Assembly: GCA_016937715.1 (NCBI GenBank)
Contig: JAFGWA010000017.1
Coordinates: 3,227 to 67,226, forward strand
Origin: Candidatus Goldiibacteriota bacterium
Lineage (GTDB): Bacteria; Oederibacteriota; PGYV01
DNA length: 64,000 bases
Reading direction: 5' to 3'
In this document: piece after piece, positions 16,145 to 52,188 of the stretch
Layout: every line of letters starts with the position of its first letter
Numbering within the stretch: position 1 is the first letter of the stretch
Position numbers and translations under genes: made by a program
The notes under the pieces: generated by a model
What the model saw: the letters and a program-made list of their open reading frames with translations, nothing else
What the model was told of the DNA's origin: nothing
The model's database searches: none

Positions 16145-16256
16145 AAGCAATAATACCACATTATGGAATACAAATATACATAAATAATCAAAGTTCTACA
16201 GGACAGCGTATTATAGGAAGATGCGGTTAAAATGTCAAGCGCTATTTAAGAGAGGT

Positions 16257-26856: not shown

Positions 26857-27918
26857 CTAAAGTAAAATAAGTTTATCATCCATTGAGCCAAGCTTAACGG
26901 ACCCGTCTTTTGTTACAAGATAATCATCTTCAATTCTTATTCCGTAATTGCCTTCCAGGTATATACCCGGTTCGCAGGTTATTACCATTCCCTGCTTTAA
27001 TACTGTATCGGCGGTGGAATTCACATATGGTTCTTCGTGTATGTCTATCCCAAGGCCGTGGCCAAGGGAGTGGGTGAAAAATTTATCAAGCTTGTGTTCA
27101 AAAAGCACACGCCTGGCTTCCCTGTCCGCTAAAACCGCTTTATTTCCGTTTTTTACCATTTTTAAAGCTGTTTTTTTGGCTTTTCTTACAATATCATAAC
27201 TGCGCTGTATTTCCCTGAAGCGAGTTCCTATTATACCGAAGCTGATTACCCTTGTCAAGTCTGAACAGTAGCCGTTGCACTTCACCCCGCAGTCAAGCAG
27301 GATAAGCGACCCTTTTTGAAGTTTTCTGTCAGAAGGCATAGCGTGCGGGATTGCGGCATTTTCATCAAACGCAACAATTGTATTAAAACTGACCGAAGAA
27401 GCGCCAAGTTTTTTTGCCCTGTATTCAAATTCAGCGGACAGGTCTTTTTCTGTTATACCGGTTTTAAGTGTTTTAATAACAGCCATTATGGCGTTTTCGT
27501 TTATTTCAATAGAATGTTTTATTGCCTGTATTTCATCACCATCTTTAATAAGCCGCATGGATGATATTAAGGAAGAAATCTGAGGGTTCTTTGTTGTTTT
27601 TTTAAGGTTAATATAATCTGACAGGGGCGTATGTACTGAAATATAAGTTTTTGTTTTGCCTGCAAGTATTTTTTTAAGAGTGTCCTTAAATTTATTTGTT
27701 ATTATTACTTCATAAAAAGAAGCCAGCTTCAGGTTATCCGTAATTCCCTTATAGCGGCTGTCTGTTATGAAAAAAGATTTATCACGGGTGATTATTATTT
27801 TTGCGAAAGTGCCTGAAAAGCCGGAGAGATAAAAGATGTCTGAAGCGCAGGCCGCGTAAAAGCATTCATTATTTTTTAAGGATGATAAAACTTTTTTTAC
27901 GCGCGCTTTAAAGTTCAT
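26857..27918 (-). CDS. Xaa-Pro aminopeptidase (M24 family)
   Basis: M24 metal ligands (DCGVKCNGYCSDLTR, HSLGHGLGIDIHE, ITCEPGIY..IRIED); the classic efp neighbour. Confidence 0.85.
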   Translation of the reverse strand: MNFKARVKKVLSSLKNNECFYAACASDIFYLSGFSGTFAKIIITRDKSFFITDSRYKGITDNLKLASFYEVIITNKFKDTLKKILAGKTKTYISVHTPLSDYINLKKTTKNPQISSLISSMRLIKDGDEIQAIKHSIEINENAIMAVIKTLKTGITEKDLSAEFEYRAKKLGASSVSFNTIVAFDENAAIPHAMPSDRKLQKGSLILLDCGVKCNGYCSDLTRVISFGIIGTRFREIQRSYDIVRKAKKTALKMVKNGNKAVLADREARRVLFEHKLDKFFTHSLGHGLGIDIHEEPYVNSTADTVLKQGMVITCEPGIYLEGNYGIRIEDDYLVTKDGSVKLGSMDDKLILL

Positions 27919-37680: not shown

Positions 37681-37709
37681 TTGACCTTAATATACCGTTG
37701 TGATAATAT
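37681..37709 (+). promoter_or_regulatory. sigma70-type promoter of the HD-GYP/cyclase operon
   Basis: TTGACC (37681-37686), 17-bp spacer, TAATAT (37704-37709). The ORF-track GTG start at 37700 lies inside the -10 element, so the TTG at 37739 is the more plausible start. Confidence 0.55.
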
Positions 37710-37738
37710 ATATTTACGGTGTTTTAGCGGAGGTATTT

Positions 37739-39019
37739 TTGAAAATAAGAAGCCAGTTAATATTAGGTATAGTTGCTATCGTCATCCTTTCTGTAACTGC
37801 AACCACTGTTGTGCTTGTAAGGGATGCCGCGGAAATAATGCAGGGGCAGATAAACGAAAAAGCGTTACTTATGATAAATTATTTTAAGGGCGTCAGCGCG
37901 GAACCGCTTTTAAAAGATGATGAAGTGACGCTTAATACATATCTTAATGAAATTATTTCAACCGAAGGGCTTGTTTACCTTATTATTACCGGCAGAGACG
38001 GGTATGTGAAAGCCGCTGACGATTCTTCACTGCTTGGCGCGGTTTTAAAAAACAGGCTGCCTGAGATTGCAGCGGGTGAAAAAAATATTTTTTTGAAATA
38101 TAAAGGCAGTGATTATTCAGTGATTGCCTTTTCGGGCACCGTGGACGTAAAAGCCGGACGAATTAAAACTGAAGCGGGAAAAATCTACGCCGGTTTTGAC
38201 AGTGAATACGTAAAGGAAAAACTTGTAAGGGTTTATGTTAAAAGCGCGGCAATTGCCGCGGGTATAATTATTATATCTGTTATTTTTATTGTGGCATTAA
38301 TGCACAGGATGATGAGCCCCTTAAACAAACTTGTAAAAGGGACAAATAAAATTGCAGACGGCGATTTAAGTTATAAAATAAAAATAACCGCGGGCAATGA
38401 ATTTCAGGAGCTTGCAAACAGTTTTAACGGCATGACGGATAAACTTAAGGATTATTATGACGGAATATTAAACGCGTTTACGGTGGCGGTGGATACGCAG
38501 GATAAATATATTCCCGCGCACGCAAAAAGAGTTTCAAAGATGGCGGTTAAAACAGCGCAGGCAGCCGGGCTTTCGCCCAAAAGGGCGGAAAATTTAAGGG
38601 TGGCTGCTATATTAAAGGATGTTGGCAATATCGGAGTAAAAAGAAAAATACTTGATAAGACCGACCCGCTTACGGCTGATGATTTTCTTGAAATACAGAA
38701 ACACCCGGAAATTGGAGCTAAGATTATTAAAAATATTGATGCTTTAAAAGATGTTGTCCCTATTATAGTGGCTCATCATGAAAGGTTTGACGGCAACGGT
38801 TATCCTGACGGCAAAAAAGGCGAGGAAATTCCTGTTGAGGCAAGGATTCTTGCGGTGGCGGACGCTTATGACGCCATGACAACCGAAAGGGAGCACAGAA
38901 AAGCGCTTGATAAAGAAGAGGCGGTTTATGAACTTAGGCTTAACAAAGGAAAACAGTTTGACCCTGTTATAACAGAAAGGTTTATTGAGGTAATAAATAA
39001 GGAAGGAGGAAAAACTTAA
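37739..39019 (+). CDS. membrane HAMP-HD-GYP phosphodiesterase (start revised to TTG at 37739)
   Basis: TM - periplasmic sensor region - TM - HAMP (LVKGTNKIADGDLSYKIKI) - HD domain with HHERFDGNGYPDG (HD-GYP). GGAGG lies 5 nt upstream of the TTG. The stop overlaps the next start (TAATG). Confidence 0.8.
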   Translation: MKIRSQLILGIVAIVILSVTATTVVLVRDAAEIMQGQINEKALLMINYFKGVSAEPLLKDDEVTLNTYLNEIISTEGLVYLIITGRDGYVKAADDSSLLGAVLKNRLPEIAAGEKNIFLKYKGSDYSVIAFSGTVDVKAGRIKTEAGKIYAGFDSEYVKEKLVRVYVKSAAIAAGIIIISVIFIVALMHRMMSPLNKLVKGTNKIADGDLSYKIKITAGNEFQELANSFNGMTDKLKDYYDGILNAFTVAVDTQDKYIPAHAKRVSKMAVKTAQAAGLSPKRAENLRVAAILKDVGNIGVKRKILDKTDPLTADDFLEIQKHPEIGAKIIKNIDALKDVVPIIVAHHERFDGNGYPDGKKGEEIPVEARILAVADAYDAMTTEREHRKALDKEEAVYELRLNKGKQFDPVITERFIEVINKEGGKT

Positions 39020-40581
39020 TGGCAGAAAAAAAGACGGTGAAGAAAAAAAATAAAGGATTAAAAATTTCACTGGGGGCTAAGTTTAGTTTTTTAGTGGGGC
39101 TGTTGTTTGCCGGAATAATGACGGTTGTCACCGTATTTATATATAATCACGAAAGCGATGTTCTTTCAAACCAAATAAAGCAGCGAGGTACTGCAATTGC
39201 GGTAAATCTTGCCAATAACGCATCCGAAGCGCTTACCAATGATGATGAACTTACGCTTTCCAAGCTTGCCAGGGAAGCTGTACAGGAAACAAAGTTTGAT
39301 GAAACACAAATGGAATTATATGACCGTGTAATTAAGATATTAAAGGAAGATATAATTGAACAGAAGAAGAAAGAAATTATTAAAAACGAAGGCATTATGG
39401 AAGCTGTTGTTGTAAAAAAAGACGGAAATATTGCGTCCGCGGATGAAGTAAGGAGGATAGATGAAAGATATATCCTTCCGGCGGGTTTAAAACCCGTTCA
39501 AAAAGAAAATGATGTGCTTATTCAGGAATATAAAAAAAATGGAAAAAGTTATTTTGATATCGCGGTACCTTTAAAAGCGAAGCTTGGTATGGATGAACAC
39601 ATGATAGGAGAGGTTCATCTTACGGTTTCAACGCAGATAATAACCGAGAGCGTGGCCGTGGCTTCTGTTAAAGTCGCCCTTATTACTATAATAGGGCTTA
39701 TAGCAGGGATACTTTTTACGGTACTGCTGGTAAACTTTATGGTAAAACCAATAAAGCAGCTTGTAAAAGGCGTTAATAAAATAGGGGAAGGAAATTATGA
39801 TGTGGTAATTCCCACCAGGTCGCATGATGAAATAGGCGATTTGACGAAAGCTTTTAATTCCACAGCCAAAAGCCTTAAGGAAAAAGAACTTTTAAAAGGC
39901 GCGTTTTCCACTTATGTGTCGGACAAAGTCATGCAGCAGGTTTTAAAAGACCCTAACAAACTGCAGCTTCACGGAATTAAGGTAAAAGCCACAATGATGT
40001 TTACCGATATCAGGGGATTTACATCAATGTCTGAAAATCTTCAGCCGGAAGAGGTTGTAAGCGTAATAAATGAGTATCTGACACTGCAGACTGATAAAGT
40101 TTTTAAATTTGAAGGGCTTCTTGATAAGTTTGTGGGAGACTGTGTAATGGCTGTATATGGCGTGCCTTTTCCCAAGCCGGATGACGCATACCGCGCCGTA
40201 AGGACAGCAATGGCTATAAGGGAAGGCGTGGAAAAACTTAATGTGATAAGAAAAAGAAGAAACATGATAGTGGTTCAGATAGGTATTGGGGTTAATACCG
40301 GCGATGTGGTTTCCGGAAACATGGGTTCGCCGCAGAAAATGGATTATACCGTAATAGGCGACAATGTAAACCTTGCCGCAAGGCTTGAAGCAAACGCTCC
40401 CGGCGGGCAGGTATGGGTAAGCGAAAGCACATATCTTGAGACAAAAGATTATATTGAATATGAAGAACTGGCGCCTATAATGGTTAAAGGAAAAAAGGAG
40501 CCGGTAAAAGTTTACAGCCCAAAAACTGTTATAATGGAATATCCAAAAGAACTGCTGGAAAAGGATAATAATGGAGCTTAA
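39019..40581 (+). CDS. membrane HAMP-class III adenylate/guanylate cyclase
   Basis: TM - sensor - TM - HAMP (LVKGVNKIGEGNYDVVIPT) - cyclase core MFTDIRGFTSMSE...FVGDCVMAVYG...GVNTGDVVSGNMGS...YTVIGDNVNLAARLE. Confidence 0.85.
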   Translation: MAEKKTVKKKNKGLKISLGAKFSFLVGLLFAGIMTVVTVFIYNHESDVLSNQIKQRGTAIAVNLANNASEALTNDDELTLSKLAREAVQETKFDETQMELYDRVIKILKEDIIEQKKKEIIKNEGIMEAVVVKKDGNIASADEVRRIDERYILPAGLKPVQKENDVLIQEYKKNGKSYFDIAVPLKAKLGMDEHMIGEVHLTVSTQIITESVAVASVKVALITIIGLIAGILFTVLLVNFMVKPIKQLVKGVNKIGEGNYDVVIPTRSHDEIGDLTKAFNSTAKSLKEKELLKGAFSTYVSDKVMQQVLKDPNKLQLHGIKVKATMMFTDIRGFTSMSENLQPEEVVSVINEYLTLQTDKVFKFEGLLDKFVGDCVMAVYGVPFPKPDDAYRAVRTAMAIREGVEKLNVIRKRRNMIVVQIGIGVNTGDVVSGNMGSPQKMDYTVIGDNVNLAARLEANAPGGQVWVSESTYLETKDYIEYEELAPIMVKGKKEPVKVYSPKTVIMEYPKELLEKDNNGA

Positions 40582-41824: not shown

Positions 41825-42175
41825 ATGAAGCCGTTTGACTGTGAAACCTGCGGTTTAAAGATTAAAGATAATCAGGCCGTTGTCAGGTGGCATTATGATA
41901 AAGAAAAAAAATCCGCGGATACTTTTCAGATAGTCCATCCAAATACGGTATGTTCAGATTCCAAAGAAGGTTTTTTTAACCGGTCGCTTGAACTGATGTA
42001 TGTTTTTGGAAAGATGCCGGAGTTTATAAAGTACATTTCAAGGTTAAAACACGATAAAAAAGAGCTTAAAAGGTTTGTGGACCGTATTGAAAAAGGGCGC
42101 AGTTACATAAGGCGGCACAACGCGGATAAAAACGAAATTAAAAAGCTGATAATAAGGCTTGAAGGGCTGGAATGA
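41825..42175 (+). CDS. hypothetical small protein with an N-terminal CxxC motif
   Basis: 116 aa, CETCG near the N-terminus, Lys/Arg-rich; tightly packed in the operon. Confidence 0.35.
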   Translation: MKPFDCETCGLKIKDNQAVVRWHYDKEKKSADTFQIVHPNTVCSDSKEGFFNRSLELMYVFGKMPEFIKYISRLKHDKKELKRFVDRIEKGRSYIRRHNADKNEIKKLIIRLEGLE

Positions 42176-42645
42176 TAATGGAATGCAAAGAGGCAAGAAA
42201 AAAACTTAATGATTATTCAAAAGGATATATTACAGATACCGCGGAAAAAGACAGCCTGGAGTCGCATATTAAAAAGTGCGAACTGTGCAGGCGGGAGCTT
42301 GCCATGTGGCAGGATGTAAACGACAGGCAGCACGGCCTGGAAGGCGGGCGCGTGTCATCGCGCCTTGCGGAAAAAGCCCATCAAATAAGCGGTGAAATGG
42401 AAAAAGACGTAAATATGGCTCCGGCCGCCAAAAGAATGGGTTATGTGGCCAATACTTTAAAATCTCCCGCGGCAATGATAATAGGAATAATTACGTGCGT
42501 GTTTTTAGGGCTGGCAATTCTGCTTATGTTTGTTAAAGAAGAAGTAAGCATATGGTTTCACATATTTATGATAGCGGGAGGAATTGCCATGATATTTGTG
42601 GCGGTTAAAACGTCCGTCTTCAACAGGAAGAAAAGTAAAAAGTAA
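42172..42645 (+). CDS. zf-HC2 (anti-sigma-factor-type zinc finger) membrane protein
   Basis: N-terminal C-x23-H-x3-C-x2-C (CKEARKKLNDY...HIKKCELC) typical of the anti-sigma zf-HC2 domain, then a C-terminal TM segment. No sigma factor gene is adjacent. Confidence 0.5.
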   Translation: MIMECKEARKKLNDYSKGYITDTAEKDSLESHIKKCELCRRELAMWQDVNDRQHGLEGGRVSSRLAEKAHQISGEMEKDVNMAPAAKRMGYVANTLKSPAAMIIGIITCVFLGLAILLMFVKEEVSIWFHIFMIAGGIAMIFVAVKTSVFNRKKSKK

Positions 42646-42647
42646 TA

Positions 42648-42676
42648 TTGACAAAATAACTGACAAAATATATAAT
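42648..42676 (+). promoter_or_regulatory. consensus sigma70 promoter (TTGACA-17-TATAAT) upstream of the cNMP-binding protein gene
   Basis: Perfect -35 TTGACA (42648-42653), exactly 17-bp spacer, perfect -10 TATAAT (42671-42676). Confidence 0.7.
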
Positions 42677-42711
42677 ACATAAGGATTAAAAAAAAGACGG
42701 GGGAAAATGAG

Positions 42712-43140
42712 ATGGCAGATGACATTACCAGGTTAAGAGAAACGCTTAAGAAGGTTGATTTTTTCTATTCTTTAAACTTTGCTCAGCTTGACGAACTTAT
42801 TAAAGCAATGAAAAAACAGAAATTCAGAAAAGGTGAAGTAATAATTCAGCAGGGTGAAACCGGAGATGCTTTCTACATGATATCGGTAGGTTCTGTATCC
42901 ATACATATAAAGAAAGGAATGTCAGAAAAGAAAGTGGCAGGGCTGTCAGAAGGTGATTTTTTTGGAGAAACAGCACTTGTAACAGATTCGCCAAGAAACG
43001 CCACTGTTATAGCAGAGGCACCTACAGAGCTGTTTGTATTGCATAAGGCCTCTTTTAAGAAAATACTTCTTGCCAACCCTAAGATATCTGCTATAATCAA
43101 AGAAGAACTGGCCAAAAGAAAGTCAAAAAACGCATTATAA
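42712..43140 (+). CDS. stand-alone cyclic-nucleotide-binding (CAP effector) domain protein
   Basis: 142 aa. The cNMP-binding beta-roll has FGETALV...PRNATVIA and a C-terminal helix, with no DNA-binding or other output domain. Confidence 0.8.
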   Translation: MADDITRLRETLKKVDFFYSLNFAQLDELIKAMKKQKFRKGEVIIQQGETGDAFYMISVGSVSIHIKKGMSEKKVAGLSEGDFFGETALVTDSPRNATVIAEAPTELFVLHKASFKKILLANPKISAIIKEELAKRKSKNAL

Positions 43141-43251
43141 TACCGTATTAAGCGATTAAACAGGGAATATTTTCCGCTGTTTACATAATAGAAAGCTGTT
43201 TCATATGGCAGAAACGGCTTTAATTTATATTTTTGAAGGAGGAAGTCGGGT

Positions 43252-45036
43252 ATGTCTGAAACAGCAATCAAAGAAGGTGAAGCAATTAATTACGTGCTTG
43301 AAGGTATTGACCAGTCGGTTAAAGACGGGGTTATGACAGCCCTTGAATTTTTTGGAAAAGAAAAATCTGACAACGGCAATAAAATAGAGGATGTTGTTAA
43401 GGTAAACAAATTAAGGACCGCTTACAATACATTAATAACAGCCCTTGTAACAACAAGGTTAAATGACCTTAATAAACAGCAGAGGCTTTTTCTTGCCACC
43501 GGCGCCATAGGCGATTTTGTGGAAATAGGCGATAACAGAATTAATCTGCTTGATCCGGAACTATACAAACAGCTGCTTGAAGCTTTTGAAACAAAAGATT
43601 CTTTAAGCGCGCTTTCGCTTTCAGTGTTCAGCGTACCGGATAAAATGAGGGCGCTTGCAGAGGGCAATATTGAACTTATAGACACTTCGGGCAAAAAGAA
43701 AAGAAAAAAGGAAGATACGCGCGACCCCAAGAAAGTAAAAGCGGAACTTGAATGGAAAAAGAATGACGCGTTAAAAGCCGGCGCTAACCTTGTAAGGACG
43801 CTTGGAACAAATATAGACAAGATGCTTCAGCTGGACGCGACAAAGTTAAAGACTTTAAAACTTAATTTTGACGCGCTGGATAAATACATGGCAATACTTG
43901 CAAAGGGAGAAAGGATAACACCCGAGGAAAAAAAGCTTAAGTCCGCCCTTGCAATGAGAAGCGACGGCATGGCAAAAGTGCTTGCTGATTTTACAAAGAT
44001 GTACGCAGAAACTTTTACAAGGTCGGCTGAAAATGTTGATGCCATAAAAGAAAAAGTTGACGTAATAAAAGAACTTGAAAATGACCTGTCAAAAGTATCA
44101 GATGTGGTTGCTGACCAGTCCGCAAGGGCATTTGATTCTTTCAGGCCCGAACACGTTGAAATTATTAAAAAAGATATAAGCATACTTAACAGTTTTATAG
44201 TAACGGCCGCGGAAAAAGCCGGCAACAGGATGCCGTATTCCGGCGCCAGGATACTTTTAAACAGCCAGATAATAGATATGCCGACAGCAATGACAAACTA
44301 TCTGTGCACGCCGCATAACGTCATAGAATCACTTAAAAAAATACTTTCAATTCACATAAACGCTTTTCCGATTGATGAAGACGGCAATTATAAAATCCCC
44401 CCCATTCTTATTGAACCTTTAAGAAATTATGTGGATTTTTTGGAAGACAGGTTTGTGATGGGTTTTGTAAGCGGCGAATCAGGCAAGAAAGGCGCGTATG
44501 TTTCATTTACCCCCATTGATTTTCAGGTTATGAAAGCTATTGGAATGTATCTTGCGAAAGATCCTGTATATGACTATCGCGGTGAAATAAACGAAGGTAC
44601 GTTTATGGGAGACTATACAGGAAAAATAGAAAAGACGGCTCAGGTGAAATGGACCGGCGCGGATAAGAAAATGAATATGGTTATGAGCGCGGAACTTGTG
44701 GACGCCGCATCCCGCGATGACGCGGTTCAGGATTATATAGATTTTATGTTCAACGCTTTAAACGGGCTTGGGCCTCCGCCTAAAATGTCAAAACGTAAAA
44801 TTAACGTACTTTTAAGATATGCCACGGTAAAGAGCATAGAAAATAATGTTAAACTGCTTTTAACTTATGTGGCTCAGTCCGAACCCACGGAAGTGCGTGA
44901 TACTATTCTTAAATACACAAACAGAAATTACGAACAGTCCAAAGAAATGGTAAGGGCATGCGTAAAAGAAGACGCAATGGTTCAGAGGATACTTGGCAAC
45001 AACCCGGAAATGGTAATAGCTAAGATATTTGTTTAA
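43252..45036 (+). CDS. hypothetical 594-aa soluble protein (no recognisable domain)
   Basis: Long ORF with a GGAGG RBS 9 nt upstream and coding-like composition, no TM segments, and no nucleotide-binding or catalytic motif identified by eye. Confidence 0.5.
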   Translation: MSETAIKEGEAINYVLEGIDQSVKDGVMTALEFFGKEKSDNGNKIEDVVKVNKLRTAYNTLITALVTTRLNDLNKQQRLFLATGAIGDFVEIGDNRINLLDPELYKQLLEAFETKDSLSALSLSVFSVPDKMRALAEGNIELIDTSGKKKRKKEDTRDPKKVKAELEWKKNDALKAGANLVRTLGTNIDKMLQLDATKLKTLKLNFDALDKYMAILAKGERITPEEKKLKSALAMRSDGMAKVLADFTKMYAETFTRSAENVDAIKEKVDVIKELENDLSKVSDVVADQSARAFDSFRPEHVEIIKKDISILNSFIVTAAEKAGNRMPYSGARILLNSQIIDMPTAMTNYLCTPHNVIESLKKILSIHINAFPIDEDGNYKIPPILIEPLRNYVDFLEDRFVMGFVSGESGKKGAYVSFTPIDFQVMKAIGMYLAKDPVYDYRGEINEGTFMGDYTGKIEKTAQVKWTGADKKMNMVMSAELVDAASRDDAVQDYIDFMFNALNGLGPPPKMSKRKINVLLRYATVKSIENNVKLLLTYVAQSEPTEVRDTILKYTNRNYEQSKEMVRACVKEDAMVQRILGNNPEMVIAKIFV

Positions 45037-45164
45037 AACGCAATCAAAGATTGCGTTTTAAATCCCCGTGCCATTATAATAAGTATATGGCACAGCGGGA
45101 TAAATAAAAGATTGTGTTTATAATCCCCGTGTTTATGGAGAAGCGTGATAAATAAGTAAAAAAT

Positions 45165-45198
45165 GCCGCAGGTGAAAACCTGCGGCTTTTTTATTTTT
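45165..45198 (+). terminator. rho-independent terminator
   Basis: GCCGCAGGT-GAAA-ACCTGCGGC followed by TTTTTTATTTTT. A weaker hairpin (AACGCAATC-AAAG-GATTGCGTT) sits at 45037-45062, directly after the stop. Confidence 0.7.
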
Positions 45199-45288
45199 AA
45201 TCCAAACCCTGTTTATTTTTGGATTTAAGAAGTGGTAGACGCGGGTCTTCAGCCCGCGGACGTTGTATTTGTTGTATATCTTTTCTTC

Positions 45289-45321
45289 CATCCCTCTGAC
45301 CTTTTGTGCATCCGTCCCTTC
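45289..45321. repeat. copy of the GATGCACAGA-type intergenic repeat (minus orientation)
   Basis: ccatccctctgaccttttgtgcatccgtccctt is the reverse complement of aagggacggatgcacaaaaggtcagagggatgg. Compare 55582, 60751, 60850 and 29659/29808. Confidence 0.55.
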
Positions 45322-45702
45322 ATATTACATTGGTTGGGCATGTTTTTTCAGCACGCGCCGCAAATCGGTATTCTTGCGCCCAAATCAGTTTGAAATCACA
45401 GGTTTGTTAACGTCATTTGCGGCCGGGAGCTAGCGTCACATACGTATATGTCACCGATGCATTAAACAGATCCTGCCGGATACACACTATGTTAGGGCGG
45501 CGCGCACTGAAAAAACACACCCACCTTATGTTTGTTTTGAAGGTTTTATTTATGGGATAATTCAGGGGGGTTACGATATTAATTTCGTCCTGATGAATAT
45601 AAATTATTTTTGCGCGGCGTTTTTATAAAGAACACGTACAGTTTTTTTTGTATTTGATTTTATAAAAGTGAATTAATATTAAAAGAAGTATTTACTAAAA
45701 AA

Positions 45703-47466
45703 TTATGGTTTAATTTTTGTTTCTTCCATCATCATTATTATCTGATCGGTGCCTTTGCCAAGTGAATTGGGGTCATATTTGGAGGCAAGGTAAAGTTCCA
45801 ATGAAGCAAGATTTTCCCTGCCGGTTTTCATATAAAGCGTTGCCATTGCCGTATGCGCCATTCCAAAATAGGGGTTAAGTTCAAGCGCTTTTTTCAGGTA
45901 CGATTCCGCTTCATAATTTTCATTGTCAGACAGGTGCATTGCTCCAAGATTATAGAGCATATCAGCCGAATAAGGGTATATTTTTAAAGCTTCCTGATAT
46001 TCTATGTAGGCTTTTTTCCTGTCATTATTCAGAAGCGAATAACCCCTGTAATAGCGGGTGAAAAAATTATGCGGTTCAAGCATAAGTGCTTTGTCAAAAT
46101 ACACCATTTCCATATTGGTTTTTTTTAAAAGCGCGTTAAAACCTTTTTTAATATGAAGGTTTGCCGCCGCGGGCAGTAAAGATATAAAAATGTAAATAAA
46201 TATCGGAACCGTTAATACCGGCAGAAGCCGCGAAGGTATTTGAATTACATTTTTTCCCGCACCCGGCAGGGAATAAAGGTATCCGCAGAAAAGCCAGAAA
46301 ATAAAAGCGGAAGGCATTATGAACAGCGGAAAGTTATATAGCGATTCACAAAGGAAAAAAATGACAGAAGCTAAAAGCGCGTAAGCCAGAGGTTTGTCCT
46401 GCCGTAAGATTAAAGCTTTGCCCCTGTCAAAAGAAATAAGCAGCGCGGATACAAACAATAAAAAAAGCAAAAGTCCTGCCGCGCCCGTTTCCACAAACAG
46501 CTGAAGATAATCGTTATGGGCGTAAGAAGTGCTTATAAAATAAGGTTTCTCCGGTGTTATAACCGAAGCCTGATACTTTTGAAAATAATACCTGAATCCG
46601 CCTGCGCCGAAGCCAAAAACAGGTTTTTCTGCGGACATTTTAAGCCCTGTTTTTAAAATGACCGCCCTGTTAGAAAGGGAAGCGCCGCCGCCGCCGGCAA
46701 TTTCAAGCGCCCTGTTAATATTATAGGAGATTGCGGGTTTAAAACGCGGGAGAAATGTTATTGCCGTGAAAAGAACCAAAACAATAAGCATAATTACTGC
46801 CGTCTTTTTTTTAGCGGCTGCCGGAAAAGGTTTATCGGTAAAAAACAGGTATAAAAAAATTAAAAGGGAGACAAAAAGCGACAGTACAGCGCCCCTTGAA
46901 GAAGCAAGAGCAAGTACAAGAAGGGATAAACAAAGATTAACCGAGGTAAAAGGCTTGTATTTTTCGTAAGCCAGAAGTGATACAAGTATCAAAGGAAAAA
47001 GGCAGGCGGTAAATTCTGCAAGAAAGACAGGGTTTCCAAAAAAAGATAAGGGCCGTTCGCCGGTATTTATATACTGAGAAAGCGCGTATATAGAAGAAAC
47101 AAATGAAATAATATTGATGAAAATAAGAAAATTACCGCTTTTAAGTTTTGTTATTAACGGCATAAAAAAAGCCGCAGGTATCAATAAAGTAAGCAGATAA
47201 TAAACAGGCGGAAAATTATACAGCGATAACAAAGCGCGCGCCATAATATAAAAAAGAAACACGGATGCGGCTATTGCGGCTGATCCAAAATAAATTTTTT
47301 TACTGAAAAAAGAAAAGACAGCTATATATACGGCACATCCCGCTGTCAGTAACAGGGCTTTAGGCAGCTGATACATGTCATAAAACAGGGATGAAAAAGC
47401 AAGGACGCACAGAAAGATACCATAAAAAAAATAGTTCTGGAGAGAATTATTGCGTTTTTCTTGCAT
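45703..47466 (-). CDS. O-antigen ligase (Wzy_C)-family polytopic membrane protein with C-terminal TPR repeats; candidate pilin O-oligosaccharyltransferase (PglL/TfpO-like)
   Basis: About 12 TM helices with the Wzy_C signature region (LALASSRGAVLSLFVSLL); the C-terminal ~150 aa are TPR-like. It is the last gene of the prepilin operon, separated by 2 nt from the upstream gene. Confidence 0.65.
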   Translation of the reverse strand: MQEKRNNSLQNYFFYGIFLCVLAFSSLFYDMYQLPKALLLTAGCAVYIAVFSFFSKKIYFGSAAIAASVFLFYIMARALLSLYNFPPVYYLLTLLIPAAFFMPLITKLKSGNFLIFINIISFVSSIYALSQYINTGERPLSFFGNPVFLAEFTACLFPLILVSLLAYEKYKPFTSVNLCLSLLVLALASSRGAVLSLFVSLLIFLYLFFTDKPFPAAAKKKTAVIMLIVLVLFTAITFLPRFKPAISYNINRALEIAGGGGASLSNRAVILKTGLKMSAEKPVFGFGAGGFRYYFQKYQASVITPEKPYFISTSYAHNDYLQLFVETGAAGLLLFLLFVSALLISFDRGKALILRQDKPLAYALLASVIFFLCESLYNFPLFIMPSAFIFWLFCGYLYSLPGAGKNVIQIPSRLLPVLTVPIFIYIFISLLPAAANLHIKKGFNALLKKTNMEMVYFDKALMLEPHNFFTRYYRGYSLLNNDRKKAYIEYQEALKIYPYSADMLYNLGAMHLSDNENYEAESYLKKALELNPYFGMAHTAMATLYMKTGRENLASLELYLASKYDPNSLGKGTDQIIMMMEETKIKP

Positions 47467-52116: not shown

Positions 52117-52188
52117 ATAACCACTTCCTTTGCGGAGTTAAATCCATAGTAATTATATATATAAATAGAACTTATGTCAAGTATTTAG

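What the first reader, a model, noticed from the sequence alone, without database searches (positions are those of the whole stretch)
42648..45198. Consensus-promoter-driven orphan cNMP-binding domain protein followed by a 594-aa protein of no recognisable family
A textbook TTGACA-17-TATAAT promoter (42648-42676) drives a 142-aa protein that is only a CAP-type cNMP-binding domain with no output domain (42712-43140). After a weak hairpin comes a 594-aa soluble ORF (43252-45036), with a GGAGG RBS and a strong terminator at 45165-45198, for which no motif could be assigned. The pair sits at the end of a cyclase/PDE/TPR/zf-HC2 signalling operon. It is a plausible cNMP receptor plus a novel effector or partner. 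Its function is not inferable from sequence.
Basis: inference. Interest (0 to 1): 0.6.

Follow-up and report, generated by a model that had tools for sequence, protein, structure and literature searches.

The report
Orphan cNMP sensor beside unknown conserved protein
A small stand-alone cyclic-nucleotide sensor protein sits just upstream of a 594-residue protein from a tiny, uncharacterised family found only in Goldbacteria/FCPU426/Firestonebacteria; the pairing occurs only in the Goldbacteria branch, so the large protein is not intrinsically a cyclic-nucleotide effector, and its function is still unknown.

Summary
A perfect TTGACA-17-TATAAT promoter precedes a 142-aa protein that is only a CNB (cNMP-binding) domain with an intact phosphate-binding cassette. 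A 594-aa ORF with a GGAGG RBS and a strong terminator follows.

The 594-aa protein has no hit in Pfam, NCBIfam, PADLOC, PHROGs or PDB sequences. Confident AlphaFold models (whole protein pLDDT 82, C-domain 91) find no convincing PDB fold match. The family is tiny: 66 clusters at 50% identity among 1.84 billion proteins, in 52 species genomes. All are Goldbacteria/FCPU426/Firestonebacteria.

- The CNB gene lies directly upstream in 17 of 19 Goldbacteria-branch genomes, behind a conserved strong promoter.
- It is absent in 0 of 33 sibling-lineage loci, where the large gene stands alone behind its own extended -10 promoter among housekeeping genes.
- The pair is a separate transcription unit, not the end of the cyclase operon.
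- The "PDE" is an HD-GYP protein.

My best model, at about 0.4, is that the CNB protein is a Goldbacteria-specific, trans-acting cNMP-dependent regulator grafted onto an older scaffold-like protein. Nearly as likely, the two are simply syntenic neighbours. Interest is moderate.

The parts
42648..42676 (+). Sigma-70-type promoter TTGACA-17-TATAAT driving the CNB gene, and probably the large gene as well
   Evidence: 12 of 12 consensus matches. Near-consensus sites are enriched in the window, 7 against 0.73 expected. TTGACA-17-TA(A/T)AAT at 10 or more of 12 matches lies 49-109 nt upstream of the orthologous CNB gene in 15 of 17 related loci.
42699..42704 (+). Shine-Dalgarno-like GGGGGA, 7 nt before the CNB start codon
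   Evidence: Read directly from the sequence.
42712..43140 (+). 142-aa stand-alone cyclic-nucleotide-binding (CNB) domain protein with no output domain
   Evidence: PF00027 E 3e-22, the only family hit. It aligns to PKA-R, PKG, MloK1 and SthK CNB domains over residues 6-138. The phosphate-binding cassette FGETALVTDSPRNATV is at 83-98. FFGE, R95 and A97 are at least 98% conserved in 78 orthologues. pI 9.5.
43070..43097 (+). Internal promoter-like site TTGCCA-16-(TGC)TATAAT, inside the 3' end of the CNB gene
   Evidence: 11 of 12 matches plus an extended -10 TG. It is not conserved in the 17 orthologous loci, so it is possibly specific to this genome.
43192..43221 (+). Weak hairpin in the 111-nt CNB-to-large-gene spacer; a possible partial terminator or attenuator
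   Evidence: 11 pairs, 4 G-C. Free energy is -14.8 kcal/mol together with an adjacent small hairpin, and the T tail is poor. Stronger terminator-like hairpins occupy the same position in L014, L015, L017 and L018; no hairpin of note (below -5 kcal/mol) in the other 13 of 18 loci.
43236..43242 (+). Strong RBS AAGGAGG, 9 nt before the ATG of the large gene
   Evidence: Read directly from the sequence. GGAGG-type sites are present in nearly all orthologous loci.
43252..43671 (+). Large protein, N-terminal domain (residues 1-140): acidic, helical, with a small beta-hairpin
   Evidence: AlphaFold model, pLDDT mostly 86-94. pI 4.7. Moderately conserved: L54, F80, G84, A85, D88, L99, Y105, L108.
43672..43731 (+). 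Large protein, disordered basic linker (residues 141-160, with the run SGKKKRKK)
   Evidence: pLDDT below 50 for residues 148-156. pI 9.7.
43732..44223 (+). Large protein, long helical (coiled-coil) module, residues 161-324
   Evidence: Helices 159-192, 196-217, 224-291 and 299-321. The module is tandemly duplicated in the 738-aa forms: in P0057, residues 168-328 match 303-469 at 37% identity, E 6e-36. It accounts for all the generic coiled-coil fold hits.
44224..45033 (+). Large protein, conserved C-terminal domain (residues 325-594): an alpha/beta subdomain plus a helical bundle
45032..45062 (+). Perfect 14-bp inverted repeat spanning the stop codon; the first of three 3' hairpins
   Evidence: Inverted repeat I2. 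Fold of 45030-45205 gives -63.9 kcal/mol, z = -10.2. Absent from the nearest relative L064.
45159..45198 (.). Bidirectional intrinsic terminator shared with the convergent Wzy_C operon
   Evidence: 9-pair stem with 7 G-C and T-runs on both strands. Conserved in L064 with a compensatory stem change.

Best explanation
There are two genes of different evolutionary age.

(1) The 594-aa protein is a member of a small, vertically inherited, undescribed family confined to Goldbacteria/FCPU426 and Firestonebacteria. It has an acidic helical N-domain, a basic disordered linker, a roughly 160-residue helical module that can duplicate, and a very conserved 270-residue C-terminal domain with no recognisable relative. 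In the sibling lineages it is expressed alone, from its own extended -10 promoter, among housekeeping genes. Its core role is therefore a lineage-specific cytoplasmic one. I favour a scaffold or adaptor in which a variable-length helical stalk holds apart an N-terminal head and a ligand- or partner-binding C-terminal head.

(2) In the Goldbacteria branch, a gene for a stand-alone CNB domain now lies between a strong conserved promoter and this gene. I infer that the two are co-transcribed, with a leaky hairpin between them in some genomes. I also infer that the CNB protein, which has no output domain of its own, acts in trans. It would bind cAMP (less likely cGMP) made by class III cyclases such as the HAMP-cyclase encoded 2 kb upstream, and then bind or release the large protein. 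That would make the large protein's activity or assembly responsive to the nucleotide, following the logic of the PKA regulatory subunit.

Shown: domain identities, the intact nucleotide-binding cassette, family distribution, clade-limited adjacency, promoter conservation, and the absence of known folds or motifs.
Inferred: co-transcription, physical interaction, identity of the ligand, and the scaffold role.
For: - The CNB domain is intact and under selection.
- CNB-then-large adjacency on one strand holds in 17 of 19 Goldbacteria-branch species genomes, with spacers of 46-214 nt.
- A near-consensus promoter is conserved upstream of the CNB gene in 15 of 17 related loci. No promoter is conserved in the spacer. 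In contrast, sibling lineages have a conserved TGnTATAAT about 45-55 nt upstream of the large gene. This fits the CNB gene having been inserted between promoter and gene.
- The upstream flank varies (cyclase operon directly, an OmpA-like gene, a transposase, or thiamine genes), yet the pair stays together.
- A CNB-only protein needs a partner acting in trans.
- The large protein is soluble, with a strong RBS and terminator. Its helical module duplicates as a unit in some lineages, which is spacer-like behaviour.
- A class III cyclase with a substrate-specifying Lys (DKFVGD) is encoded next door here and in L014, L022 and L064.
Against: - The large gene exists without any nearby CNB gene in 33 of 33 sibling-lineage loci. 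Two Goldbacteria-branch genomes also lack it; L025 keeps both flanks.
- The whole neighbourhood (OmpA-like gene, the pair, Wzy_C and pilin-like block) is syntenic in this clade, so adjacency may simply be inherited order.
- Terminator-like hairpins lie between the two genes in about 5 of 18 loci, and this window has a strong internal promoter candidate.
- No CNB fusion occurs in any of 57 family members.
- The closest CNB relatives outside the clade sit in unrelated contexts.
- No interaction prediction or experiment was possible.
- The scaffold role rests only on architecture.
Confidence: 0.4

Rival explanations
1. The two genes are neighbours only. The CNB protein is a generic small cAMP receptor that acts on other targets or buffers cAMP. 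The large protein is an unrelated lineage-specific housekeeping protein. Their adjacency in Goldbacteria is inherited gene order with no functional coupling.
For: - 0 of 33 sibling-lineage loci have the pairing, and the large gene there has its own promoter.
- The entire region is syntenic in Goldbacteria.
- L025 lost the CNB gene cleanly.
- Hairpins or terminators lie in the spacer in several loci, and the window has an internal promoter candidate.
- Related stand-alone CNB genes sit next to tilS-ftsH-folE, or next to another CNB gene, elsewhere.
- There are no fusions.
Against: - Same-strand adjacency with short spacers survives rearrangement of the upstream flank.
- No promoter is conserved in the spacer, while the one upstream of the CNB gene is conserved.
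- An output-less sensor domain usually has its partner encoded nearby (general knowledge, not tested here).
Confidence: 0.38
2. The C-terminal domain of the large protein is a highly diverged zincin-like (metalloprotease-fold) domain. It would be either a cryptic hydrolase or an inactive protease-like binding module. The protein would then act as a protease or protease-like adaptor, possibly gated by the CNB protein.
Against: - No HExxH or other metal-ligand motif is conserved. Only 6 of 57 members have a chance H-x3-H, at differing positions.
- The helix equivalent to the active-site helix reads xQVxK.
- There is only one near-invariant His and no conserved Cys.
- No peptidase family hit in Pfam or NCBIfam.
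Confidence: 0.1
3. The cyclase, CNB protein and large protein form a Pycsar/CBASS-like anti-phage system. The cyclase would make a nucleotide signal, the CNB protein would sense it, and the large protein would be a novel killing effector.
For: PADLOC models for Pycsar effectors (PycTIR and other TIR effectors) hit the CNB protein at E 1e-17 to 8e-10. A cyclase is nearby.
Against: - The PADLOC hits cover only the CNB part of those models (positions 30-140 of 288), and there is no TIR or TM effector part.
- The large protein has no PADLOC hit.
- It is a vertically inherited gene found across three related lineages in housekeeping neighbourhoods, not a mobile defence-island gene.
- The cyclase is a membrane HAMP class III sensor cyclase in a different transcription unit, and is not seen within the 5.5-10 kb upstream held for most relatives.
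Confidence: 0.02

Closest known systems
CNB (CAP_ED / PF00027) domains of the PKA regulatory subunit, PKG, Epac, and the MloK1 and SthK channels
   Same: Same domain, with a canonical phosphate-binding cassette (FGE...R.A.). The best PDB sequence matches are PKG and PKA-R CNB domains, E 1e-45 to 1e-29 for multi-CNB chains. The isolated MloK1 CNBD matches over 130 residues. Like PKA-R, it would have to act on a separate polypeptide.
   Different: It is a single 142-aa domain. It has no dimerisation/docking region, no inhibitor or pseudosubstrate segment, no second CNB domain, no channel and no GEF. The partner, if there is one, is not a kinase.
CRP/FNR-family transcription factors
   Same: The N-terminal CNB-type sensor domain. 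NCBIfam CRP, FtrB and NtcA models hit weakly (CRP 55.7 bits against a cutoff of 266), and some source annotations say 'CRP-like cAMP-binding protein'.
   Different: There is no C-terminal helix-turn-helix domain. The matches cover only profile positions 14-129 of 214, so it cannot bind DNA in the CRP manner.
CbpA of Pseudomonas aeruginosa, a non-CRP cAMP-binding protein (Endoh and Engel 2009, cited in PMC11139211)
   Same: A bacterial cAMP effector that is not a transcription factor and whose downstream partner is not established. PMC11139211 describes it only as another cAMP effector alongside Vfr.
   Different: From my own knowledge, not tested here: CbpA is larger, with tandem CNB-like domains. 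No sequence comparison was run. The genomic context is unrelated.
Pycsar CNB-containing effectors (PycTIR and others)
   Same: They share the CNB sensor domain (PADLOC E 9.6e-18).
   Different: The effector domain is fused in Pycsar and absent here. Context and inheritance pattern are not those of a defence system.
Zincin-like fold proteins (BepA, the anthrax lethal factor ATLF domain, SprT/Wss1, MtfA)

Membership tests
Cyclic-nucleotide-binding domain (PF00027 / CAP_ED) | Match to the family profile above the curated threshold | tested here: met
   78.8 bits against a gathering score of 27.5, E 3e-22, profile positions 2-87 of 89.
Cyclic-nucleotide-binding domain (PF00027 / CAP_ED) | Phosphate-binding cassette with the conserved Gly-Glu and Arg-x-Ala that contact the ribose phosphate | tested here: met
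   F82-F83-G84-E85 ... R95-N-A97-T98 aligns with the PKG and PKA cassettes. FFGE, R95 and A97 are at least 98% conserved in 78 orthologues.
Cyclic-nucleotide-binding domain (PF00027 / CAP_ED) | Actual binding of cAMP or cGMP, and ligand specificity | not testable with these tools
   Needs ITC or a filter-binding assay. The residue after the Arg is Asn, not the Thr typical of cGMP-selective PKG sites (own knowledge), so specificity is open.
CRP/FNR transcription factors | C-terminal helix-turn-helix DNA-binding domain following the CNB domain | tested here: not met
   The protein ends at residue 142. Only PF00027 is found. NCBIfam CRP-type hits are far below cutoff and cover only the sensor part.
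PKA-type regulatory subunit | N-terminal dimerisation/docking domain, an inhibitor (pseudosubstrate) site and tandem CNB-A/CNB-B domains | tested here: not met
   There is a single CNB domain that begins within about 10 residues of the N-terminus. Only the trans-acting logic could be shared.
Pycsar anti-phage system | A PycC-type cyclase next to an effector in which the CNB domain is fused to a TIR or transmembrane killing domain | tested here: not met
   PADLOC hits are limited to the CNB portion. There is no TIR or TM part, and the large protein has no PADLOC hit. The neighbouring cyclase is a HAMP + Guanylate_cyc membrane sensor in another transcription unit.
Zincin-like metallopeptidases (for the C-terminal domain of the 594-aa protein) | HExxH (or variant) zinc-binding motif on the active-site helix, plus a third ligand | tested here: not met
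   No conserved HExxH, HxxEH or H-x3-H in 57 members. There is a single near-invariant His (H368) and no conserved Cys.
Zincin-like metallopeptidases (for the C-terminal domain of the 594-aa protein) | Confident structural superposition on a zincin fold | tested here: inconclusive
Any described protein family (for the 594-aa protein) | Sequence-profile match in Pfam-A, NCBIfam, PADLOC, PHROGs or PDB | tested here: not met
   No hit passes any threshold, for the single sequence or for 57 members. An exhaustive HMM search returns only the family itself, 66 clusters.
   PF13487 E 2e-36. HHERFDGNGYP is read in the translation. This is the c-di-GMP-type family, not a cNMP phosphodiesterase.
Operon membership with the upstream cyclase/HD-GYP/TPR/zf-HC2 genes | Co-transcription, with no intervening promoter and conserved contiguity | tested here: not met
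   A perfect, conserved promoter lies between them. In L014 and most relatives an OmpA-like gene on the opposite strand intervenes. In L001 and L005 the cyclase genes are absent within 8-10 kb.

The most novel reading that the evidence does not exclude
The 594-aa protein founds a new protein family whose C-terminal domain has a new fold and an as yet unknown activity. In Goldbacteria it would form a holo-complex with a separately encoded single-domain CNB subunit that dissociates or rearranges on cAMP binding. That would be a bacterial, non-kinase counterpart of the PKA regulatory/catalytic arrangement, acquired recently enough that sibling lineages still show the unregulated ancestral state.
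Probability: 0.15. Interest if true: 0.7.

Novelty: new variant of a known kind. Interest (0 to 1): 0.4.

Why it matters
Output-less CNB proteins are common in bacterial genomes, but the review consulted here (PMC11139211) names only CRP-type regulators and CbpA as cAMP effectors, and I found no case with a defined trans target. A clade in which such a gene has been placed in front of one specific conserved protein, with sibling lineages preserving the arrangement before insertion, is a natural experiment for finding a trans target of bacterial cAMP signalling.

Separately, the large protein is a well-modelled, strongly conserved family restricted to a group of uncultured candidate phyla, with no detectable relatives. 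It is a reasonable target for structural genomics. The practical weight is limited. The organisms are uncultured, the functional link is unproven, and lineage-specific proteins of unknown function are common in candidate phyla.

Tried and rejected
- **AFDB50 library.** It was not installed, so AlphaFold-database neighbours could not be searched.
- **Zincin protease.** Rejected as a catalytic assignment because no motif is conserved.
- **Pycsar/defence reading.** Rejected on architecture and inheritance.
- **CRP-type regulator.** Rejected because there is no HTH domain.
- **Rosetta-stone fusions.** I looked for CNB fused to the large family. None in 57 members.
- **Conserved internal promoter for the large gene in Goldbacteria.** Only this window has a strong candidate.
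- **Spacer element.** A recurrent element of the form GTTTCAyAATAtAAAA occurs in roughly half the Goldbacteria loci but not in sibling lineages. Its meaning was left unresolved.
- **Functional hints from neighbours in sibling lineages.** The neighbours were His_Phos_1 (15), Pep_deformylase (18), ACT (11), RNase_T (9), plus one locus upstream of yggT-divIVA. This is a housekeeping mix that points to no specific pathway.
- **Rfam.** Gathering thresholds on the whole window, and a sensitive search on 42600-45750, gave nothing above noise.
Full report
**1. Observation**

- The promoter TTGACA-17-TATAAT is at 42648-42676 and matches 12 of 12. In this 40% G+C window there are 7 sites within one mismatch of that pattern, against 0.73 expected from dinucleotide shuffles. 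Consensus promoters are therefore real features of this genome.
- The ORFs 42712-43140 (142 aa) and 43252-45036 (594 aa) are as described.
- The large gene has an AAGGAGG RBS at 43236-43242.
- A weak hairpin lies at 43192-43221, and a strong bidirectional terminator at 45165-45186 plus T-run.
- The terminator is conserved in the closest relative, with a compensatory stem change.

**2. The small protein**

It matches only PF00027 (E 3e-22). It aligns over nearly its whole length with the CNB domains of PKG, PKA-R, MloK1 and SthK.
- The phosphate-binding cassette is canonical: FGETALVTDSPRNATV.
- In 78 orthologues of 130-160 aa, the FFGE, Arg95 and Ala97 positions are at least 98% conserved. This is a functional nucleotide-binding domain under selection.
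- There is no HTH, TIR, TM or any other output. CRP-type NCBIfam models and Pycsar-effector PADLOC models match only through the shared CNB part.

**3. The large protein**

No sequence library recognises it.
- It has no hit in Pfam, NCBIfam, PADLOC, PHROGs or PDB sequences, as a single sequence or as a profile.
- It is nevertheless a real, conserved gene. The word-indexed search found 62 homologues.
- The exhaustive HMM search of 1.84 billion representatives found 66 clusters. All have the same 580-740-aa architecture or are fragments of it, and nothing links out to another family.
- In the species-representative genome set it occurs in 52 genomes. All are MAGs labelled Goldbacteria/Goldiibacteriota, candidate division FCPU426 or Firestonebacteria, apart from loosely labelled records.
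- PMC7031533 equates the FCPU426 16S cluster with Goldbacteria and names Firestonebacteria and Elusimicrobia as nearest neighbours. The family therefore belongs to one small group of sibling lineages.
- Identity falls into tiers that follow taxonomy: 61-94% in the Goldbacteria branch, which includes the window, and 34-41% elsewhere. The window's CNB protein is 96% identical to that of HGW-Goldbacteria-1.

*Structure.* The AlphaFold model built with the family alignment has pLDDT 82 and pTM 0.70. It shows four parts.
- An acidic helical N-domain, residues 1-140.
- A disordered basic linker carrying SGKKKRKK.
- Long helices spanning residues 159-321.
- A C-terminal alpha/beta plus helical domain.

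The helical module is a discrete unit. The 738-aa forms carry a tandem duplicate of it, 37% identical over 167 residues, E 6e-36. The C-domain holds nearly all the invariant residues, among them R333, K363, H368, N370, D399, R400, Y442-R443-G444, Y455, E460, K472-K473, D484, R488 and R515.

- The family has no conserved HExxH or other metal-ligand motif, so a catalytic zincin is excluded. A degenerate zincin-like fold remains possible but unproven.

**4. Is the pair a unit?**

*For.*
- The CNB gene lies immediately upstream on the same strand in 17 of 19 Goldbacteria-branch species loci that have upstream sequence, with spacers of 46-214 nt.
- A TTGACA-17-TA(A/T)AAT promoter is conserved 49-109 nt upstream of the CNB gene in most of them.
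- No promoter is conserved in the spacer.
- In the sibling lineages the large gene has a conserved extended -10 promoter (TGTTATAAT or TGCTATAAT) 45-55 nt before its ATG. The simplest history is that a CNB gene came to lie between a strong promoter and the large gene in the Goldbacteria branch.

*Against.*
- None of 33 sibling-lineage loci has a CNB gene nearby. There the neighbours are housekeeping genes: His_Phos_1, def, ACT-domain and RNase_T genes, thrS-infC, prs, and in one case yggT-divIVA.
- The whole Goldbacteria region is syntenic: an OmpA-like gene on the opposite strand, then CNB, then the large gene, then a convergent membrane protein and the Wzy_C/pilin-like operon.
- L025 keeps both flanks but lacks the CNB gene.
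- Five of 18 spacers contain terminator-like hairpins.
- The window has its own internal promoter candidate.
- No family member is fused to a CNB domain.
- The nearest CNB relatives outside the clade (44-50% identity) are also stand-alone proteins but sit next to tilS-ftsH-folE or another CNB gene.

**5. Relation to the cyclase operon**

In the window and in its closest relative, the genes run HAMP/HD-GYP, HAMP/class III cyclase, TPR, a 116-aa protein and a zf-HC2-like membrane protein, and end 66 nt before the promoter.
- In L014 and most other Goldbacteria an OmpA-like gene on the opposite strand lies between this block and the pair.
- In L001 and L005 the cyclase genes are absent within 8-10 kb.
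- The pair is therefore not the end of that operon, although the cyclase may well supply its ligand.
- The 'PDE' carries the HHERFDGNGYP signature of HD-GYP enzymes.
- The cyclase has Lys in DKFVGD and Thr in DYTVIGD. From my own knowledge this is the class IIIb adenylyl-cyclase pattern. That is an inference, not a test.

**6. Mechanism and verdict**

The large protein's core role predates the CNB gene and is independent of it. On architecture and expression signals I favour a cytoplasmic scaffold or adaptor, with a length-variable helical stalk and a conserved binding or catalytic head.

In Goldbacteria the CNB protein is most plausibly a trans-acting, nucleotide-dependent regulator of it, at about 0.4. 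The rival that the two are merely syntenic neighbours is almost as likely, at about 0.38. A cryptic zincin-like function is at about 0.1, and a defence system at about 0.02.

The finding is a moderately interesting lead rather than a discovery: a new variant of the 'stand-alone sensor domain plus partner' theme, attached to a genuinely uncharacterised lineage-specific family.

Noticed in passing
window 45030-45205: The 3' region of the large gene folds into three consecutive hairpins: -63.9 kcal/mol, z = -10.2 against shuffles. It contains two imperfect direct-repeat units of about 60 nt (D1 and D2). The first hairpin is a perfect 14-bp inverted repeat spanning the stop codon, and it and one repeat unit are absent from the closest relative L064.
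   Followed up: partly
window about 45207-45696: A non-coding insertion of about 490 nt, relative to the closest relative L064, sits between the shared terminator and the end of the convergent Wzy_C gene. It contains 35-nt inverted-repeat arms (45327-45361 and 45497-45531, 80% complementary). It has no credible ORF, no Rfam match and no second copy in the window. It may be a remnant of a small mobile element.
   Followed up: partly
L028-L059, about 45-55 nt upstream of the large gene's ATG: In FCPU426/Firestonebacteria-type genomes, the large gene is preceded by a strikingly conserved extended -10 promoter (TGTTATAAT or TGCTATAAT). This implies strong independent expression.
   Followed up: yes
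window 43196-43212 and the CNB-to-large-gene spacers of L005, L012, L016, L019, L020, L021, L026: A recurrent element of the form GTTTCAyAATAtAAAA lies about 45-80 nt upstream of the large gene's ATG in roughly half of the Goldbacteria loci. In the window it forms one arm of the weak hairpin. It could be a weak promoter or a regulator site, and this was not resolved.
   Followed up: partly
P0043, P0046, P0052, P0053, P0055, P0057 (738-754 aa forms; loci L006, L046-L058): One sub-lineage carries a tandem duplication of the roughly 160-residue helical module of the large protein. In P0057, residues 168-328 match 303-469 at 37% identity, E 6e-36.
   Followed up: yes
window 37700-40581: The upstream 'PDE' is a HAMP + HD-GYP protein (HHERFDGNGYP), so it is of the c-di-GMP type. 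The adjacent HAMP cyclase has the Lys/Thr substrate pair typical of class IIIb adenylyl cyclases (my own knowledge). One operon thus mixes c-di-GMP-type and cAMP-type enzymes.
   Followed up: partly
window 41825-42175: A 116-aa protein with N-terminal CxxC has no Pfam or NCBIfam family and only a weak PADLOC PbeC hit (E 3e-4). It is conserved together with the TPR and zf-HC2-like genes in L014, L022 and L064.
   Followed up: no
window 52152-52180 (-), 16210-16238 (-), 27230-27258 (-): Three further perfect TTGACA-17-TATAAT promoters. The one at 52152-52180 sits just upstream of the minus-strand operon (692-aa, pilin-like N_methyl, 624-aa, Wzy_C/TPR) that converges on the large gene and is syntenic across Goldbacteria.
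   Followed up: no
P0080 locus (JGI 3300075153; no DNA held): A divergent 642-aa family member lies directly upstream of yggT-divIVA-tgt, a cell-division/morphogenesis neighbourhood. This is a single observation.
   Followed up: no
L061 5001-5896 (Coatesbacteria contig): Two stand-alone CNB genes in tandem (149 and 134 aa). L062 and L063 have a stand-alone CNB gene upstream of tilS-ftsH-folE. Small output-less CNB proteins recur across candidate phyla in varied contexts.
   Followed up: no
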